Positions 3-38,875 of a stretch of 64,000 nt of DNA are shown one piece after another. A program made the translations under genes and the position numbers. The first letter of the stretch is position 1. The number at the start of each line of letters is the position of its first letter. Source of the DNA: a virus (Duplodnaviria; Caudoviricetes). Under the pieces are notes generated by a model. That model was not told the DNA's origin, ran no database searches, and saw only the letters and a list, made by a program, of their open reading frames with translations. The stretch spans positions 23,212 through 87,211 of IMG/VR virus record IMGVR_UViG_3300033072_000473; one strand, written 5' to 3'.

Positions 3-2165
3 TACACTAAACCTGATTTAGACTTAGCAGGTTATGAAATTAGAGAATTATATTCCACAGGATTAGACCCGTATACTAAACTAAGTGGTAGTACTGTAGT
101 TTGGAAGGATAAAATAGAATTAGGGGCCTACTTAGGAACTGTTCTAACGGATGATCAGTATTACCAGAAACTAAATGATAAGTGGGATACTTTAGCTAAA
201 GCAGAGCAGGGGTTAATAAAAAATACCTCATATATTGATATATCTGCTTTAACCGGGTATAATACTTTTTTAGTAAAGGCAGTAGATACTAGCGGTAATT
301 ACTCTAAAATACCAGCACTTATAGGTATTGAGTTAAAGGGCCCTTCCTCAGTTACAGTCGGCGGTATTACAGTAAGAATAGATGGTGAAGACTTAGTTGT
401 AACTTGGCCTAGACCTTCTTCTGATACAAAAGTAGATAACTATGTGGTAGCTATTGATGGACAAACCTATACAGTTTATACTGAGGAATTTAGACGTAAA
501 GCCTGGTTTATTGGTACTGAAGTATTTGATGTTACACCTTATGATAAGGCCGGTAACTCTGCTGCCAAAGTATCTCTAAATATAACTATTGAGGATAACT
601 TAGCACCTCAAAACCTTAGCTATTCTATAGTTGACGACTTAGCTACTGTACAAGTTTTAAATGACTCTTTCAAGTTAACCTGGAATGAAACAGCACCTAG
701 TGGATTAAGTTTACCTATAGTAGAATACGAAATACGTATAGATGCAAACTTTGGACAAGCTATAGGACTAATAGCTAAAACAAGCTCTAAACAGTATGTT
801 TCAAAAGTTACTTGGGGCGGCTCAAAAACTTTATATGTAGGGGCTAAAAATTCCGCAGGGTTTTATACACCTTATAGTTCAAAGACTATTAGTATAGTAT
901 CTCCAAATGAACCCACTACCGTAACTAGTAAAGTTGTTGATAATAATGTTCTCTTATATTGGACTGCTCCTACTGCTGGAGGTAGCCTACCTATTGACGA
1001 ATACGTAATTAAAAAGGGTGCTACATTAGGTACTGCTATAGATGTAGGTACTAAGGCAGGTAACTTTACAACAGTATTTGAAACTGTTGGAGGAGACTAC
1101 GTATATTGGGTAGCTGCAAAAGATACTGCAGGTAATATAGGTACGTATAAAAGTACTGCTGCAACTGTTAATCAACCCCCAGACTACGTATTACAGTTTG
1201 ATTATACTAGTGATTATAGTACAGGTACGAAAACTAATGCAGTATTAGATTCAGATAATAATTTAATTCTACCTGTATATAGTACTGAAACATTTACAGG
1301 GCACTTCTCAGTAATTCGTATAACTACAGCTACAATTAATGCTGGGGGTACTGGGTATGCTGTAGGGGATACTGTATATATAAATACTGGTACATACACT
1401 TACAGAGCTGTATTAACTGTAACAGCAGTTTCAGCTGGTGTAGTTACTGGTATAAGTATTGAATACCCTGGTATATATAGTGTTGCTCCTACTGCTATAG
1501 GAAGTGCAACATTAAAAATAACAGGTAATGGTACTGGGTTAACTGTAAATACTACTACAGCTACTTGGACAACTCCACAAAATCAAATTGATGCAGGGTA
1601 CCCTATATATATTCAACCAGAACTACCTTCTGGTAGTTATATAGAGGTTAAAGATTATGGTACTACTTTAGTAGGTAATACAGTTACAATAACTACAGAT
1701 ATTGAGGAAGTAGTTACGGGAGCTATTATTACTTATAAAATAGAGTCTTCACCAGATAACTTAGTATGGACTTTAGTATCAGACGCTAAATCAGGTTTTG
1801 CCACTAATTTTAGATACTTACGTGTCACTGTAACAGTAACTAATGGCTTAATTAAATTAAAGTTATTAAATACAAAAATTGATAGTAAATTAAAAACACA
1901 ATCTGCAAGTAAGGTAGTTAATGCTGCGGATACTAATGGCACTATAATATACTTAACCAAAGATTATACATCTACAGGTACTAAAGTATTTAAAGATGTG
2001 CAATCAATTACTGTAACACCTAGTTTTGTAGTAGGTAGTCAACCGATAGCTATATATGATTTTACGGATATTGCCGATCCATTATATTTTAGTATTTATT
2101 TATATGATTCTTTAACAGGTAACAGACTAAGTGGTACCTGCAGTTATACCGTAAGAGGTGTTTAA
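3..2165 (+). CDS. Tail tip / central straight fibre protein (T5 pb4-like, FN3 repeats), 5'-truncated by the window
   Basis: Frame +3 is open from position 3 (YTKPDLDLAGYEIRE...) into ORF 444..2165; FN3-like repeats; C-terminus ...SGTCSYTVRGV resembles pb4/J-type ends. Confidence 0.75.
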   Translation, partial: YTKPDLDLAGYEIRELYSTGLDPYTKLSGSTVVWKDKIELGAYLGTVLTDDQYYQKLNDKWDTLAKAEQGLIKNTSYIDISALTGYNTFLVKAVDTSGNYSKIPALIGIELKGPSSVTVGGITVRIDGEDLVVTWPRPSSDTKVDNYVVAIDGQTYTVYTEEFRRKAWFIGTEVFDVTPYDKAGNSAAKVSLNITIEDNLAPQNLSYSIVDDLATVQVLNDSFKLTWNETAPSGLSLPIVEYEIRIDANFGQAIGLIAKTSSKQYVSKVTWGGSKTLYVGAKNSAGFYTPYSSKTISIVSPNEPTTVTSKVVDNNVLLYWTAPTAGGSLPIDEYVIKKGATLGTAIDVGTKAGNFTTVFETVGGDYVYWVAAKDTAGNIGTYKSTAATVNQPPDYVLQFDYTSDYSTGTKTNAVLDSDNNLILPVYSTETFTGHFSVIRITTATINAGGTGYAVGDTVYINTGTYTYRAVLTVTAVSAGVVTGISIEYPGIYSVAPTAIGSATLKITGNGTGLTVNTTTATWTTPQNQIDAGYPIYIQPELPSGSYIEVKDYGTTLVGNTVTITTDIEEVVTGAIITYKIESSPDNLVWTLVSDAKSGFATNFRYLRVTVTVTNGLIKLKLLNTKIDSKLKTQSASKVVNAADTNGTIIYLTKDYTSTGTKVFKDVQSITVTPSFVVGSQPIAIYDFTDIADPLYFSIYLYDSLTGNRLSGTCSYTVRGV

Positions 2166-23342: not shown

Positions 23343-23947
23343 TATAGTGTAATTCCTTGTTGTCTCAAATGGTCTAAGCTAGCCAACTCCCAATACGGCT
23401 GATAGGCAAACTGTTGCCATTCTTCAGCATCTAGCCAAACTCTATAAACTTCTGGCTGATTGGGTACTAGTGATTTAATAATTGCCATAGAATTGTATCT
23501 TGCCGACCATACGCGCTCATTTACTTCAAACTTTTCACGCATGGCAGCTTCAGGGATTAGTTCAGGCGTCCAGTAATCTGCTCCTTGAATACGTTTAGGG
23601 CAAGATACACGTTCTAAAATATTCTTTACAAAATTATCGCTGCGGTAAATACTATTAGCAATTTTACTAATTGGCTCACCTTCCAAATAAGAAGTAACTA
23701 TCAAATCAATTTCTTCTTTGGAAGCTGCCTTATAACGCTTTTTCTCACGCTGTAGACGCTCGTGATCTTTTTTATCTTTGTAATTATTAATAATACTATC
23801 TAATCGAGTAGTATTATAACTAATACATAAGATTTCACATGCAGCCTTCTTAGTAATAGGCTTTTCAGCAGAAAGAAGGCCAATTACTTTCTCAATATTA
23901 GAATCGGTTAGATTCTCATGTTCTGCATTAGCCCGCTTTCTAGCCAT
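23342..23947 (-). CDS. D2: T5 D2-like protein
   Basis: ITKKAACEILCI motif; synteny. Confidence 0.7.
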   Translation of the reverse strand: MARKRANAEHENLTDSNIEKVIGLLSAEKPITKKAACEILCISYNTTRLDSIINNYKDKKDHERLQREKKRYKAASKEEIDLIVTSYLEGEPISKIANSIYRSDNFVKNILERVSCPKRIQGADYWTPELIPEAAMREKFEVNERVWSARYNSMAIIKSLVPNQPEVYRVWLDAEEWQQFAYQPYWELASLDHLRQQGITL

Positions 23948-29520: not shown

Positions 29521-29583
29521 CAGGATCGACCTTTTACAAGTCAGATTAGCAGTCTGGTGTATTTTATTTGCTGAAACGATCCT
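29521..29583 (-). ncRNA. CAGCAA-motif RNA, copy A (carries a Ser-GCU-type anticodon arm)
   Basis: AGGAUCG/CGAUCCU stem + UUUCAGCAA + CAGA-CUGCUAA-UCUG. Confidence 0.7.
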
Positions 29584-29593
29584 AAATAAGTAG

Positions 29594-29684
29594 TGGCGGG
29601 TCGAGAGAGAGTCGAACTCTCAAGGGCTTATTAGGCCTCGACTGTTTTCAAGACAGGTTCCATCGCCAATTGGATTGCCGACCC
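29594..29684 (-). tRNA. tRNA-Ser(UGA)
   Basis: Loop CT-TGA-AA; long variable arm; CCA. Confidence 0.92.
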
Positions 29685-30332: not shown

Positions 30333-30416
30333 CAGGATACTGTGCCTACCATTAGGCTTATCTCGCTAAGACGAAACAATGGAATCGAACCATTAAAAAT
30401 TTTGCTGAAAGTATCC
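30333..30416 (-). ncRNA. CAGCAA-motif RNA, copy B (YrlA-like permuted tRNA mimic)
   Basis: GGAUAC/GUAUCC stem + UUUCAGCAA, then T-arm, loop-closed acceptor-like stem, D-arm. Confidence 0.75.
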
Positions 30417-30422
30417 AAAAAT

Positions 30423-30540
30423 TGGCCCCGAAACTAGGATTCGAACCTAGAACCTCTCCATTACAAGTGGAAGTTAAAGATGCGGTAAATATTCTTACAG
30501 AATACTATTTTTAGCGCTCTACCGATTGAGCTATTTCGGG
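30423..30540 (-). tRNA. tRNA-Thr(UGU)-like gene with 42-nt insertion (30471..30512) at the 5' side of the anticodon stem
   Basis: Perfect acceptor, D and T arms and CCA; removing 42 nt restores CTCCA-CTTGTAA-TGGAG. Confidence 0.8.
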
Positions 30541-30547
30541 ATTAAAC

Positions 30548-30625
30548 TGGTCTCAGTGGTAGGATTCGAACCTACGGTTTCCTGCTCCCAAAGCAGGCGA
30601 CTTAACCAAACTAGCCTACACTGAG
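30548..30625 (-). tRNA. tRNA-Pro(UGG)
   Basis: CCTGC-TTTGGGA-GCAGG; CCA. Confidence 0.93.
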
Positions 30626-31422: not shown

Positions 31423-32838
31423 CTACAAACTATAACGATCGCTCATTACAGCTTTCAGCATAATTGCTTCAGGAGTAAATTCTTCTAAATCGCCACTAAG
31501 GACTGCCTTCATAATAGAAGGCGAGAATCCCGAAATAAGTGCCACGCCTTGTTGATTAAACTTAGCAGGAACATTATCATTGGCGTTTAGATTCCAAAAT
31601 ACAACTTTAGGCACTTGATAGCCAGCACGCTGATATTTGCTGGCAATCATTTGCATAGCATTATGGTCGTACTCAGCGCAATGATCGAACTGCATATCCG
31701 AAAGGATAAGCAAAATTTCAGGCATTTCGCTTTGTGGTACTTGATTTTTCACTGCTACACCCAGCACTTTATCAAAGGCCACATGTAGGTTAGTATTCAT
31801 ATTCCACAGAGATTTAACCATTTGTTGTGCACGCTGAACTACATCACCTTTGAGGCTAAGTAGTTCAGGAGTACCAGAGAAAGTAAGGAACAAATCCTTG
31901 AACTTACCCTGGTTCTTTTCACTAAGGTATAAGCCTAGTGAAACTGCAACATCCATGCAGGTAGTTGAACCTTTACTACCGGCTGCACAACTCATAGAGC
32001 CTGAAACATCTACCATCGGTAGAATACTTGCAGAACCTACGTAGTTTGGCAGCGCTTTCCACTGAGCTACAATCAAATCCTTTTGAGTTTGGTTATACTC
32101 AGCAGTATAATAAAGGTTAGCAACTCCCTTTAGCACGTCATAAGGGTAAACTGCACCAGCATTAACTTTTACAGTTTTATCGCCCTCTTTAAGTTTAGCT
32201 ACATATTCTGCGTACTTGGGAGTATTACGGAAAAATGCAGTCTTATAACGTGCATGTGCTAGACTAGGAACATGGGAGAAATTAATCTCTTCCCACTGCT
32301 TAGAGCACATTTGTTGTTCTACAACTTTAGTCAAATTGACTAGAGTTTTACGATAGAACTTTGGTGACCAACCAAGATACTGACGGAATTGTTCCGCCAC
32401 ACGGCCTTTACGTGGAGTCCACTTAGCCGCCAGACCGTTGCCTTCGGCAAGAGCTTGGCGCACTAGTTCGAACCCTACGTCTTGCATCTTAGGGGTTTGA
32501 AACGCAAACAAATCATCAAAGCGACCAAGGTCGGGAACCTTTTTAGCTAGACGAATTGCAGACTCCATATCATTCTTTTCCAGATATTGCAAAATATCAC
32601 GGAAAATCTGGCGTTCACCTACCCCTTGACGAATATCACGAACCCATTGTGCAATGCGTAGCGCAATATCCTTGTTCTCTACTAGAGCTGCGACAAAATC
32701 AGGAATAATATCCTTACCACGAGATGCACCAATCTTAAAGAAAAGATCAGTACAAGCATTTTCAGTTGCCTTAAATGCTTTCATCCCATTCTGGGTACGA
32801 ACTTCTTGATTTTGTACAGCTTGAGCAAAAGTAGTCAT
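31423..32838 (-). CDS. DUF2828-type protein: helical N-domain plus C-terminal vWA (Ro60/TROVE-like architecture)
   Basis: DLFFKIGASRG, WVRDIRQGVGER, AAKWTPR; MIDAS DVSGSM...TFS...TNL...LSDMQFD; VVFWNL. Confidence 0.8.
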   Translation of the reverse strand: MTTFAQAVQNQEVRTQNGMKAFKATENACTDLFFKIGASRGKDIIPDFVAALVENKDIALRIAQWVRDIRQGVGERQIFRDILQYLEKNDMESAIRLAKKVPDLGRFDDLFAFQTPKMQDVGFELVRQALAEGNGLAAKWTPRKGRVAEQFRQYLGWSPKFYRKTLVNLTKVVEQQMCSKQWEEINFSHVPSLAHARYKTAFFRNTPKYAEYVAKLKEGDKTVKVNAGAVYPYDVLKGVANLYYTAEYNQTQKDLIVAQWKALPNYVGSASILPMVDVSGSMSCAAGSKGSTTCMDVAVSLGLYLSEKNQGKFKDLFLTFSGTPELLSLKGDVVQRAQQMVKSLWNMNTNLHVAFDKVLGVAVKNQVPQSEMPEILLILSDMQFDHCAEYDHNAMQMIASKYQRAGYQVPKVVFWNLNANDNVPAKFNQQGVALISGFSPSIMKAVLSGDLEEFTPEAIMLKAVMSDRYSL

Positions 32839-32924: not shown

Positions 32925-33053
32925 CGGGATGCTTTGTAACTGTTTATTAAACGAAAACCGTTACCCAAACGTTCGTCGACACCGATATCTATAAATAGAT
33001 ATCTGAAAGCCTCGACCATCTCCATAAGTGTATATGGTTGCTGAAGTCATCCC
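32925..33053 (-). ncRNA. CAGCAA-motif RNA, copy E
   Basis: GGGAUG/CAUCCC stem + CUUCAGCAA; internal hairpins GAUAUCUAU-UU-AUAGAUAUC and GUAAC...GUUAC. Confidence 0.7.
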
Positions 33054-34297: not shown

Positions 34298-34372
34298 TGG
34301 TGCTCCCACTGTGAGTCGAACACAGATTCGCGGGTTACAAAGCCGCAGTAATAGCCATTATACTATAGGAGC
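34298..34372 (-). tRNA. tRNA-Thr(UGU), uninterrupted
   Basis: Loop TT-TGT-AA; G1-C72, C2-G71; CCA. Confidence 0.88.
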
Positions 34373-35084: not shown

Positions 35085-35169
35085 AGTTTATGAATTCTTT
35101 TAATTAAACTCAGAAATAGTATTTTATAAGTTTAATTAAAGTAATTCAAGTTTATTTTTCTGTTACTAG

Positions 35170-35450
35170 GAAAATAAACAAACCCTAAGCAGTATTTAGG
35201 CTGCTAAAGCAAAGGTATTATCGTTTGCGTTTACTTTATTTGCTTTTTACGTCTACTCCTGACGTGTTGCCCTATCAACTATCTCACGCTGTCGAAACCA
35301 GGTCAGGCCCATCAAAAGCATACTAGGGAATCGAACCCCATTTCTAGAATAGTTCCAAACGACCAGAGCGACTGGCAGTATGCTTTTGGTGGACCTGGGC
35401 GGAATCGAACCGCCGTCCAACGCGCCTTTATATCAAAGGTTATACAACAA
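35170..35450 (-). ncRNA. ssrA: Circularly permuted (two-piece) tmRNA, tag ANDNTFALAA
   Basis: Acceptor piece (...GGCGGTTCGATTCCGCCCAGGTCCACCA, ends 35387) precedes coding piece (GGGCCTGACCTGGTTTCGAC, starts 35310); tag ORF 35228..35196; outer ends approximate. Confidence 0.92.
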
Positions 35451-35696
35451 TTACTTACAAGTAGCAAGCCACTTTCTGATTTCTTCTACAGTCTTAACAC
35501 CGCTAATAGAATGTTTACTAGGGAGATGTAGTAGTGTTGGTACTCCGCGGATCATATATTCATCTACAAGATCTGGGTGTACATCAATATCTACTACTTC
35601 TACATCAATACCTAAATCTGCACTTTCCAAGTTTTTGGCAAGTGCCTTACATGGTTGACACCAACTAGCAGTAAATCTGAGAACTTTTTCTTGCAT
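35451..35696 (-). CDS. Thioredoxin-like protein
   Basis: FTASWCQPCK, IRGVPT; SD GGAGA before ATG 35696. Confidence 0.9.
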   Translation of the reverse strand: MQEKVLRFTASWCQPCKALAKNLESADLGIDVEVVDIDVHPDLVDEYMIRGVPTLLHLPSKHSISGVKTVEEIRKWLATCK

Positions 35697-35811: not shown

Positions 35812-36132
35812 TGGTACCCGTGGCCGGAATCGAACCGGCATGCTTGCGCGAGGGATTTTAAGCGGTTATGTCCTAAAGTTTCCTAAAGGCCCGGACTATC
35901 TCTTTACCTTCAACACTACTTGTTAAGGTAGTGGGCGTTCTTGCTGGTTATTAAGAGGGCTAAACCTCTCCAGTAGTCTCTACACCTTCCAATACTGTAG
36001 TATTGGCTTGGCTCGCGATTGCCATTTTACAGACTCTCCCGAATTAACCCACAGTTTATCTAACTATTTCTAATTAGAGGGGACTATCAGTTTCTGCTGA
36101 TCCCTTGTGTCTTCCTATTTCACCACACGGGC
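35812..36132 (-). tRNA. tRNA-Leu(UAA) interrupted by a group I intron
   Basis: Exon 1 GCCCGTG...AGGGA(T); exon 2 CTTAAAATCCCT...ACCA. Confidence 0.88.
35863..36099 (-). mobile_element. Group I intron (~237 nt, no ORF)
   Basis: P7 elements GAGACUAC / GAUAGUCC, P1 GGGAU/GUCCC with U-G pair, P9 GAAA hairpin, terminal AUAACCG. Confidence 0.88.
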
Positions 36133-38783: not shown

Positions 38784-38875
38784 TGGTAGAAGCGGCAGGA
38801 ATCGAACCTGCATTGGCCAATTATCTATTGCACACGGGATATAAGTCCGCTGTTTTACCGTTAAACTACGCTTCC
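38784..38875 (-). tRNA. tRNA-Ile(UAU)-like with long variable arm
   Basis: GGAAGCG/CGCTTCT; loop CT-TAT-AT; 22-nt variable region with CAAT/ATTG stem; CCA. Confidence 0.8.

What the first reader, a model, noticed from the sequence alone, without database searches (positions are those of the whole stretch)
30423..30540. tRNA-Thr(UGU) carrying the motif helix as a 42-nt insertion: a circular permutation of copy B
Seen: an intact cloverleaf with AAAAAUA-GUAUUCU-GUA-AGAAUAU-UUACCGCA-UCUUUAACUU inserted at the start of the anticodon stem; deleting it restores CUCCA/UGGAG. Read as a circle, the order helix-motif, (anticodon), T, acceptor, D matches copy B, but it is opened at the acceptor (with CCA) rather than at the helix. 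An uninterrupted Thr(UGU) exists at 34298. The insert is too short for a group I intron, and the site is not a canonical intron position. Inference: either an aminoacylatable tRNA with a protein-binding handle, an evolutionary intermediate between tRNA and Y-like RNA, or a new protein-dependent intron or split tRNA.
Basis: partly seen in the sequence, partly recalled or inferred. Interest (0 to 1): 0.8.

Follow-up and report, generated by a model that had tools for sequence, protein, structure and literature searches.

The report
tRNA-shaped RNA with Ro60-type handle
A phage gene encodes a complete tRNA-shaped RNA with an extra conserved arm in its anticodon stem; it is most likely a partner RNA of the neighbouring Ro60-like ring protein, in a widespread pairing I found in no RNA catalogue or paper searched, not a tRNA with an intron.

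Summary
On the minus strand, 30540..30423 is a full cloverleaf with encoded CCA. A 42-nt insert splits the 5' strand of the anticodon stem; removing it restores a 5-bp stem and a Thr(UGU) loop.

It is not an assembly artefact. The same gene occurs in three independent metagenome assemblies, with the insert 42/42 identical. A homologous insert at the same site occurs in at least 12 divergent phage lineages.

Covariation supports every helix, including the inserted hairpin and the two base pairs that bridge the insert. The insert is a hairpin, 3 nt, then CNGCAW. This is the same "handle" that closes the Y-RNA-like tRNA mimic immediately downstream.

The handle travels with DUF2828 genes: 5/5 carrier contigs against 0/4 controls, often within 0.2-2 kb. 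The DUF2828 model matches Ro60 over its full length (Z 17.8).

Within clades the anticodon triplet is the most variable site, while the handle motif never changes.

Best reading (about 0.6): an unspliced, tRNA-shaped partner RNA of a Ro60-like protein. The intron reading is poorly supported, and charging is untested.

This scan has reached the same RNA class before on other genomes. I found no Rfam family or paper describing it.

The parts
30423..30540 (-). Whole gene: tRNA-shaped RNA ('tRNA*') with encoded CCA (30425..30423)
   Evidence: Rfam tRNA 49 bits, model 1-71. Family model R1 scores 107.7 bits. Sequence read.
30471..30512 (-). 42-nt insert between anticodon-stem positions 28 and 29 (or 27 and 28): A-rich linker, hairpin, 3-nt spacer, CCGCAU, U-rich linker
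   Evidence: 42/42 identical in L007, L008 and L009. Same site and design in L004 and many other lineages.
30489..30505 (-). Inserted hairpin: 7 bp (one G-U pair) closed by a 3-nt loop
   Evidence: Present in the minimum-free-energy fold. All 7 pairs show changes on both sides across 22 sequences, 91.6% paired.
30480..30488 (-). Handle motif: 3-nt spacer plus CCGCAU, a variant of the family consensus CNGCAW (usually CAGCAA)
   Evidence: Alignment A3 columns 64-72. 0 changes in 30 within-clade cells. Variants seen in other members.
30456..30470 (-). Inner anticodon hairpin (3 bp plus 7-nt loop with U33, UGU at 30465..30463, A37, A38), followed by the 3' bases of the two outer stem pairs (30457..30456)
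   Evidence: Inner pairs 100% paired, and all 3 covary. Outer pair 29:97 is G-C in 12 sequences and U-A in 10, with no mismatch.
30513..30514 (-). 5' bases of the two outer anticodon-stem pairs that bridge the insert
   Evidence: helix 3.
30516..30531 (-). D arm (4 bp, loop with G18 G19)
30434..30450 (-). T arm (5 bp, canonical T loop)
30335..30416 (-). Copy B: YrlA-style permuted tRNA mimic. A 7-bp terminal helix followed by CAGCAA, a T arm, a loop-closed acceptor stem and a D arm. It starts 6 nt after the CCA of tRNA*.
   Evidence: Fold (z -2.75). Permutation alignment. Present in L009 and absent in L007/L008.
31423..32838 (-). DUF2828 + DUF7788 gene (471 aa): Ro60-fold ring plus a vWA domain with a conserved MIDAS motif; the presumed binder of the handle
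   Evidence: Pfam. Model and fold matches. Invariant D277, S279, S281.
32926..33053 (-). Copy A: another terminal-helix plus CAGCAA RNA, just upstream of the DUF2828 gene and directly after a tRNA-Met
   Evidence: (repeat D14).
29523..29582 (-). Small terminal-helix plus CAGCAA RNA displaying an anticodon-arm-like hairpin (4 bp, 7-nt loop)
   Evidence: Sequence read.
34298..34372 (-). Ordinary, uninterrupted tRNA-Thr(UGU) with G1-C72 and C2-G71; unrelated in sequence to tRNA*

Best explanation
The gene makes an unspliced, tRNA-shaped non-coding RNA that serves as a partner RNA of the phage's Ro60-like DUF2828 protein.

Proposed steps:
1. It is transcribed with the tRNA operon (Val-Ile-Met-Cys-Pro-tRNA*-copy B).
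2. It is trimmed like a tRNA, since it has a 7-bp acceptor stem and an encoded CCA.
3. It folds into a normal L shape.
4. An extra arm projects from the upper anticodon stem as a three-way junction.
5. That arm (7-bp hairpin, 3 nt, single-stranded CNGCAW) is the handle gripped by the ring protein, as Ro60 grips the conserved helix of Y RNAs.
6. The rest of the molecule displays a complete tRNA, including a canonical anticodon loop, to tRNA-recognising factors.

Shown here: the anatomy, its conservation and covariation, linkage to DUF2828, and the Ro60 fold of DUF2828.

Inferred: physical binding, absence of splicing, and the downstream role. My guess for the role is a decoy or tether for anticodon-directed host enzymes, because the triplet is the fastest-changing site.
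For: (a) The insert is under strong constraint. It is 42/42 identical in L007/L008, whose DUF2828 is 77% identical and whose tRNA cluster is 88% identical. The chance of no change at that divergence is about 0.006.

(b) The same site and design occur in many lineages. On 22 sequences, 97.1% of cells pair. All 7 hairpin pairs and all 3 inner stem pairs covary. The pair bridging the insert is G-C in 12 and U-A in 10 with no mismatch. 0 of 500 shuffles reach these values, and slid controls pair at 32-45%.

(c) The same handle closes non-tRNA RNAs: copy B, copy A and the 29.5-kb element in this window, and permuted forms elsewhere. The permuted copy B is colinear with tRNA*.

(d) Linkage to DUF2828 is strong. 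A homologue is present in 5/5 carrier contigs and in 0/4 control contigs whose long tRNA inserts lack the motif. It lies within 0.2-2 kb in at least 8 lineages whose proteins are only 31-35% identical to this one. Here it lies 883 nt away.

(e) The DUF2828 model matches Ro60 over its full length. The Thermus phage Ro60 gives Z 17.8, rmsd 4.0 over 380 residues. The top 10 entries are all Ro60. The vWA MIDAS residues are invariant.

(f) Within clades there are 34 minimal changes. Four fall in the anticodon triplet, the highest rate (0.27 per site, P 0.011). None falls in the motif, in loop positions 32, 33, 37 and 38, or in the anticodon stems. The family carries at least 9 different triplets.

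(g) The phage already has an ordinary Thr(UGU), and L004 has an ordinary Ile(GAU) beside its GAU-bearing member.

(h) Contigs from three RNA libraries bridge the gene with the insert in place.

(i) Precedent: the tRNA-like Y RNA YrlA of M. smegmatis is cleaved by RNase P and receives CCA in vivo (PMC4201824). A phage Ro60 binds phage-encoded Y-like RNAs (PMC12135203).
Against: - No binding, expression or processing experiment exists; the linkage is correlation only.
- The anticodon arm keeps exactly 2+3 bp, a 7-nt loop, U33 in 18/22 and A37/A38 in 21/22. Thr triplets (UGU or GGU) dominate, in about 6 of 13 lineages. Two of the four within-clade triplet changes are Thr-synonymous. All this would also fit a working tRNA.
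- The window's motif deviates from the consensus at two of six positions.
- The RNA-library contigs may derive from DNA or from precursors.
- The DUF2828 model is of middling confidence (pLDDT 70.5).
Confidence: 0.6

Rival explanations
1. A working, aminoacylated elongator tRNA that keeps the extra arm. It decodes ACA in this phage. The arm serves to protect, sequester or regulate it through the DUF2828 protein.
For: All tertiary-fold nucleotides are intact, with an encoded CCA and a canonical 5-bp (2+3) stem and 7-nt loop with U33 and A37. Thr triplets predominate and UGU/GGU exchanges are synonymous. In some members the discriminator base fits the triplet, for example G73 with CCA and A73 with Lys or Ile triplets (identity rules from my own knowledge).
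Against: The triplet is the most variable site within clades, including Thr to Ile and Thr to a Ser triplet on a body without the long variable arm that SerRS needs. The gene is redundant with an ordinary isoacceptor in the same phage. This gene has C1-G72, whereas bacterial ThrRS identity uses G1-C72 (my own knowledge); its ordinary sibling has G1-C72. Some relatives have no usable anticodon loop at all, such as the L011 clade. A 42-nt branch in the anticodon stem has no known precedent on the ribosome.
Confidence: 0.17
2. A new protein-dependent tRNA intron. The hairpin-CNGCAW element guides a nuclease and a ligase that excise it to give a normal 76-nt tRNA-Thr.
For: Deleting the insert restores a perfect anticodon stem in every member, with the 2+3 bp register strictly kept. 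The insert is too small to be self-splicing, so any splicing would have to be protein-dependent.
Against: The same element occurs where there is nothing to splice, in copies A and B and in permuted forms. The junction linkers are unconserved, and in L096 both are A-rich, so no bulge-helix-bulge can form. The Rfam group I model does not match. The insert is more conserved than the neighbouring DNA. The L011 clade would yield no anticodon loop after excision.
Confidence: 0.08
3. The handle is real but is bound by something other than DUF2828. It could be a host factor or a small phage protein, or it could act in cis as a processing or stability signal for the tRNA operon.
For: Linkage is only correlative. 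Some carrier loci show no DUF2828 within the fetched DNA, including the CCA clade in loci up to 9 kb. Dictyostelium Class I RNAs with a near-identical stem-plus-motif design were reported to bind an RRM protein (PMC7919456).
Against: 5/5 against 0/4 contig co-occurrence, and sub-2-kb spacing across very divergent phages. The Ro60 fold has a well-known habit of binding stem-plus-motif RNAs encoded next to its gene.
Confidence: 0.12
4. A decaying tRNA pseudogene, or an assembly chimera.
For: ARAGORN does not call the gene.
Against: It is present in independent assemblies and in sequencing runs from several studies. There is covariation in every helix and zero change in the insert.
Confidence: 0.02

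Closest known systems
YrlA-type bacterial and phage Y RNAs bound by Ro60/Rsr (Rfam RF02553; Chen et al. 2014, PMC4201824), especially M. smegmatis YrlA, which is cut by RNase P and gains CCA
   Same: A tRNA-like module (T arm, D arm, acceptor stem) joined to a protein-binding helix with an adjacent conserved motif. It is encoded beside the gene of a Ro60-fold ring protein and occurs in phages.
   Different: The topology is permuted: here the acceptor end is open and the handle is a closed hairpin inside the anticodon stem. A full anticodon arm is kept. The motif is CNGCAW, not GNCGAAN0-1G. The protein is DUF2828, with no TROVE match by sequence. The RF02553 model scores only 17 bits against a threshold of 69, and that weak match lies mostly over the neighbouring tRNA-Pro, touching only the first 25 nt of this gene.
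Thermus phage phiLo Ro60 with Yrl1/Yrl2 (PMC12135203; PDB 9KOP, 9L5Y)
   Same: A phage-encoded Ro60-fold protein with partner RNAs encoded next to it. It is the best structural match of the DUF2828 model (Z 17.8).
   Different: Sequence identity is about 13%. The phiLo RNAs are terminal-stem Y-like RNAs with a CGAA motif, not tRNA-shaped RNAs.
Dictyostelium Class I non-coding RNAs (PMC7919456; search pattern in PMC5054030)
   Same: A 6-bp stem whose sequence varies but covaries, followed by a few bases and then CAGCAA. That is the same handle design as in this phage family.
   Different: They are eukaryotic. Their stem joins the 5' and 3' ends, they have no tRNA body, and the reported binder is an RRM protein. 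Homology was not tested here.
tRNA genes with introns (group I in bacteria and phages; bulge-helix-bulge in archaea)
   Same: A tRNA gene interrupted in the anticodon arm; removing the interruption restores a canonical arm.
   Different: The insert is too short for group I, has no match to that model, and has no bulge-helix-bulge. Its sequence is conserved as a module that also occurs outside tRNAs.
Two-piece (permuted) tmRNA, present in this same window (35142-35502, minus strand)
   Same: Another tRNA-derived RNA whose gene order is circularly permuted relative to its relatives.
   Different: It is a different family, with a known function in ribosome rescue.

Membership tests
tRNA (Rfam RF00005) | Score above the curated threshold over the whole model | tested here: met
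   49 bits against 29, model positions 1-71.
tRNA (Rfam RF00005) | Cloverleaf with 7-bp acceptor stem, D and T arms, and tertiary-fold nucleotides (U8, A14, G18 G19, R15-Y48, T-loop) | tested here: met
   Read directly. The helices covary.
tRNA (Rfam RF00005) | Continuous 5-bp anticodon stem | tested here: not met
   42 nt split the 5' strand after 2 bp. ARAGORN does not call the gene.
tRNA (Rfam RF00005) | Aminoacylation and decoding | not testable with these tools
   Needs acid-gel or ribosome assays. Indirect evidence is mixed.
YrlA Y RNA (Rfam RF02553) | Score above the curated threshold | tested here: not met
   17.1 bits against 69, partial match at 30516-30576.
YrlA Y RNA (Rfam RF02553) | tRNA-like module with T arm, D arm and acceptor stem | tested here: met
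YrlA Y RNA (Rfam RF02553) | Ro60-binding stem formed by the 5' and 3' ends, with the GNCGAAN0-1G motif (PMC4201824) | tested here: not met
   The handle is an internal hairpin followed by CCGCAU.
YrlA Y RNA (Rfam RF02553) | Encoded next to a Ro60 orthologue | tested here: inconclusive
   The neighbour has the Ro60 fold but only DUF2828/DUF7788 by sequence, with no TROVE match at E 0.01.
Stem-CNGCAW 'handle' RNAs linked to DUF2828 (uncatalogued; defined in this scan) | A covarying 6-7 bp helix, then 3-4 nt, then CNGCAW | tested here: met
   7-bp hairpin, 3 nt, then CCGCAU. The family model scores 107.7 bits, against 53 or less for ordinary tRNAs.
Stem-CNGCAW 'handle' RNAs linked to DUF2828 (uncatalogued; defined in this scan) | Co-occurrence with a DUF2828 gene | tested here: met
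   883 nt away in this window. 5/5 against 0/4 contigs, and 0.2-2 kb in at least 8 lineages.
Stem-CNGCAW 'handle' RNAs linked to DUF2828 (uncatalogued; defined in this scan) | Physical binding to the protein | not testable with these tools
   No RNA-protein predictor is on hand. Needs EMSA or co-immunoprecipitation.
Group I intron | Catalytic core (roughly 200 nt or more) matching RF00028 | tested here: not met
   The insert is 42 nt and gives no match at E up to 1. The model does find the true intron at 35872-36099.
Archaeal-type bulge-helix-bulge intron | Two 3-nt bulges flanking a 4-bp helix formed across the junctions | tested here: not met
   The junction linkers are unconserved A/U-rich strings. 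In L096 both are A-rich and cannot pair.
Ro60 / TROVE protein (for the neighbouring gene) | HEAT-repeat ring plus vWA domain with MIDAS | tested here: met
   Z 17.8 and 13-14 to Ro60 structures over residues 27-471. The DxSxS residues are invariant.
Ro60 / TROVE protein (for the neighbouring gene) | Sequence match to the Pfam TROVE domain or to solved Ro60 chains | tested here: not met
   Pfam gives only DUF2828 and DUF7788. A profile of 20 homologues against PDB sequences finds nothing.

The most novel reading that the evidence does not exclude
These are chargeable tRNAs, or exact tRNA decoys, physically tethered to a Ro60-like ring. On this reading the phage uses the particle to present chosen anticodon arms to host anticodon-directed nucleases or tRNA-modifying enzymes. 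The rapidly changing triplet would then record an arms race. The same handle-protein pair would also explain the orphan Class I RNAs of social amoebae and the function of DUF2828 in eukaryotes.
Probability: 0.2. Interest if true: 0.9.

Novelty: new variant of a known kind. Interest (0 to 1): 0.7.

Why it matters
DUF2828 is a very large protein family with no assigned function. A capped search found more than 7,900 relatives, and the papers that mention it concern plants and other eukaryotes.

This locus, with its relatives, gives the family a concrete and testable RNA ligand and a Ro60-like mode of action. It extends the Ro60/Y-RNA principle in two ways: to a second protein family, and to RNAs that are whole tRNAs rather than partial mimics.

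There are practical consequences too. Gene finders either miss these genes (ARAGORN) or would count them as decoding tRNAs (the Rfam tRNA model), which distorts phage tRNA inventories.

If the anticodon display proves to be a decoy for host tRNA nucleases, it would be a new kind of phage counter-defence.

Tried and rejected
- An exact 25-nt search for the hairpin plus motif in viral contigs found nothing. Relatives were reached only through the protein and through degenerate patterns.
- A 15-nt motif search in the window gave one near match at 23639, which lies inside a coding region and is chance.
- blastn of the region against deposited phages found only generic tRNA similarity.
- The single-sequence minimum-free-energy fold recovers the inserted hairpin, D arm and acceptor stem but not the T arm or anticodon hairpin. 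I relied on the covariance model and on covariation instead.
- Pattern hits L014, L018, L024 and L025 have long inserts without the handle and were used as controls. L006 is a different, more complex arrangement. Many metagenome hits (for example L062, L097, L048, L049, L095, and the L055 group) are adjacent tRNAs or other RNAs.
- A profile of 20 DUF2828 proteins against PDB sequences found nothing. Only the fold comparison shows the Ro60 relation.
- RtcB and Rnl2-type RNA ligase families have no match in the 87-kb contig. The contig is 83% complete, so this is not proof of absence.
- No contig in four RNA libraries joins across the insert. Contigs drop rare forms and small, modified RNAs are poorly sampled, so this is not evidence of absence of splicing.
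- 'Evolutionary intermediate' is rejected as a description, because the design is conserved and constrained across distant phages.

Full report
**Setting.** The window is part of an 87-kb IMG/VR phage contig, estimated 83% complete. A block on the minus strand from about 28.7 to 43 kb holds roughly 25 tRNA genes, a two-piece tmRNA and a group I intron. Inside this block lies a 471-aa gene with Pfam domains DUF2828 and DUF7788 (31423-32838, minus strand).

**The observation.** Read on the minus strand, 30540..30423 is a complete cloverleaf:
- It has a 7-bp acceptor stem, U8 and A9, a 4-bp D arm with G18 G19, and G26.
- It has a 5-nt variable loop, a T arm with a canonical loop, G73 and an encoded CCA.
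- The anticodon stem is split. Two bases of its 5' strand are followed by 42 extra nucleotides (30512..30471), then by the remaining three bases, a 7-nt loop carrying UGU, and an intact 5-nt 3' strand.

The Rfam tRNA model matches end to end at 49 bits and reports 55 nt where it expects 13. ARAGORN does not call the gene. The junction is ambiguous by one nucleotide.

The insert consists of an A-rich linker, a 7-bp hairpin with a 3-nt loop, three bases, the hexamer CCGCAU and a U-rich linker. An ordinary Thr(UGU) gene, unrelated in sequence, lies at 34298-34372.

**Not an artefact, and under selection.** The gene is present in three independent metagenome assemblies. Their DUF2828 proteins are 94% (L009) and 77% (L007, L008) identical to this one. 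In L007 and L008 the tRNA cluster is 88% identical overall, yet the insert is 42/42 identical. Only four positions of the gene differ: two in the D loop, position 26, and the middle anticodon base, which turns UGU into UAU. L007 and L008 lack copy B, so the two RNAs are retained independently. Near-identical sequence is also held by sequencing runs from several studies of wastewater, freshwater and aquaculture samples.

**A widespread family.** A more distant phage (L004, DUF2828 53% identical) has a 41-nt insert at the same site. Its hairpin sequence is different, a closely related motif follows, and its triplet is GAU. Two degenerate pattern scans then recovered many further lineages with the same order of parts (viral contigs; metagenome contigs). 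That order is D arm, N26, two stem bases, A/U-rich linker, hairpin, 3-4 nt, CNGCAW (mostly CAGCAA), linker, 3-bp/7-nt anticodon hairpin, two stem bases, variable loop, T arm.

Covariation on a 22-sequence alignment (A3) gave these results:
- 97.1% of cells form standard pairs, against 65.8% in shuffles and 32-45% when partners are slid.
- All seven hairpin pairs and all three inner anticodon-stem pairs show changes on both sides.
- The outer pair that bridges the insert is G-C in 12 sequences and U-A in 10, with no mismatch.

The interrupted stem therefore forms around the insert, as a three-way junction.

A covariance model built from this alignment (R1) separates family members from ordinary tRNAs. 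Members score 55 bits or more and are over 100 nt long. Ordinary tRNAs score 53 bits or less. The model finds exactly one member in this window. Several other phages carry two to four paralogues with different tRNA bodies. Motif variants among them show that the window's CCGCAU lies within the family's range.

**The same handle on other RNAs.** Six nucleotides after the CCA starts copy B (30416..30335). It has a 7-bp terminal helix followed by CAGCAA, a T arm, an acceptor stem closed by a tetraloop, and a D arm. This is the architecture described for YrlA Y RNAs (PMC4201824).

I opened copy B in its acceptor loop and joined it at its helix. It then aligns colinearly with tRNA* at score 64.5, against 42.1 +/- 4.6 for shuffles. 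The unpermuted order scores no better than shuffles.

Further helix-plus-CAGCAA RNAs lie just upstream of the DUF2828 gene (33053..32926) and at 29582..29523. The latter displays a 4-bp/7-nt anticodon-like hairpin.

**Link to the protein.** Five of five contigs carrying members of different lineages encode a DUF2828 homologue. Four of four control contigs, whose long tRNA inserts lack the handle, do not. Within the fetched loci the gene lies 0.2-2 kb from the RNA in at least eight lineages, although those proteins are only 31-35% identical to the window's.

The AlphaFold model (pLDDT 70.5, pTM 0.65) matches Ro60 structures over its full length. The ten best entries are all Ro60. The Thermus phage Ro60 leads at Z 17.8 (rmsd 4.0, 380 residues), and Xenopus, human and Deinococcus Ro60 score 13-14. 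vWA-only matches stop near Z 10. The vWA MIDAS residues are invariant in 20 homologues. By sequence the relation is invisible.

**Intron, decoder or handle?**

Evidence against an intron:
- The module occurs where nothing can be spliced.
- The junction linkers are unconserved, and in L096 both are A-rich, so no bulge-helix-bulge is possible.
- The insert is far too small for a group I intron and does not match that model.
- The insert is better conserved than its surroundings.
- One clade (L011) keeps an intact 5-bp stem around the module and would have no anticodon loop after excision.
- Contigs from three RNA libraries bridge the gene with the insert in place, although these may stem from DNA or from precursors.

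Evidence against a dedicated Thr decoder:
- Within five clades there are 34 minimal changes. Four hit the anticodon triplet, the highest per-site rate (P 0.011). None hits the motif, the other loop positions or the anticodon stems.
- The changes include Thr to Ile, and Thr to a Ser triplet on a body lacking the long variable arm.
- The phage already has a normal isoacceptor.
- This gene starts with C1-G72, whereas bacterial ThrRS identity uses G1-C72 (my own knowledge).

Evidence for some tRNA-like use of the anticodon arm:
- The 2+3 bp register, the 7-nt loop, U33 and A37/A38 are kept.
- Thr triplets are over-represented.

**Conclusion.** I conclude, at about 0.6, that this is an unspliced tRNA-shaped partner RNA of the Ro60-like protein. 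Its handle is gripped by the protein and its body displays a tRNA, anticodon arm included. What the display is for remains inference. A decoy or tether for anticodon-directed enzymes would fit the fast-changing triplet.

**Comparison with known systems.** The closest known system is Ro60 with YrlA-type Y RNAs. It includes a phage example with solved structures (PMC12135203) and M. smegmatis YrlA, which is cut by RNase P and receives CCA. The differences here are:
- the permuted topology;
- the retained anticodon arm;
- a different motif;
- a protein family unrelated by sequence;
- failure of the RF02553 model (17 bits against a threshold of 69).

The handle design (a 6-bp covarying stem, a few bases, then CAGCAA) is also that of Dictyostelium Class I RNAs. 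I did not test that resemblance for homology.

I found no Rfam family and no paper describing these RNAs or a function for DUF2828.

**Earlier notes of this scan.** Earlier AI notes describe the same class on other genomes, including cyanophage tRNAs with the module in the anticodon stem. I treated them as leads and derived the evidence above independently.

Noticed in passing
window 29598-29684 (-): A class II tRNA-like gene with a long variable arm and a UGA triplet in its loop, probably tRNA-Ser. ARAGORN misses it, and the only Rfam match is the tRNA-Sec model, below threshold (41.7 bits against 47). It is followed directly by a small helix-CAGCAA RNA.
   Followed up: partly
window 38784-38875 (-): ARAGORN calls a 92-nt tRNA-Ile(UAU) with an unusually long variable region (about 19 nt). 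The Rfam tRNA model matches it at 58 bits. Its identity is unclear.
   Followed up: no
window 30416/30418: In contigs from two RNA libraries (X11, X16), a related strain has 92 extra letters between tRNA* and copy B. This may be one more small RNA of the same kind.
   Followed up: no
L051 469-1007: Four tRNA-shaped handle RNAs in tandem, with different tRNA bodies and loop triplets, on a 1.4-kb metagenome contig.
   Followed up: partly
L006 1700-2000 (348-kb phage contig): A cluster of rearranged tRNA parts: a D-arm half followed by an insert of about 100 nt, then a T arm, an acceptor stem closed by a loop, and another D arm. The contig has only a weak DUF2828-like match (E 8.5e-5).
   Followed up: no
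alignment A3, columns 1 and 127: 15 of 22 family members start with C1-G72. Several (L010, L012, L013, L034, L057) could extend the acceptor stem by a G(-1):C73 pair, as tRNA-His does. This is unusual for Thr, Ile or Lys tRNA bodies.
   Followed up: no
L047/L053/L081 (about 51-154, minus strand): A permuted, copy-B-like handle RNA that also carries a 4-bp/7-nt anticodon-like hairpin with a GCA triplet, directly after an ordinary tRNA.
   Followed up: no
window 35142-35502 (-) and 35872-36099 (-): A phage-encoded two-piece (permuted) tmRNA with tag ANDNTFALAA, and a group I intron, in the same tRNA block.
   Followed up: no
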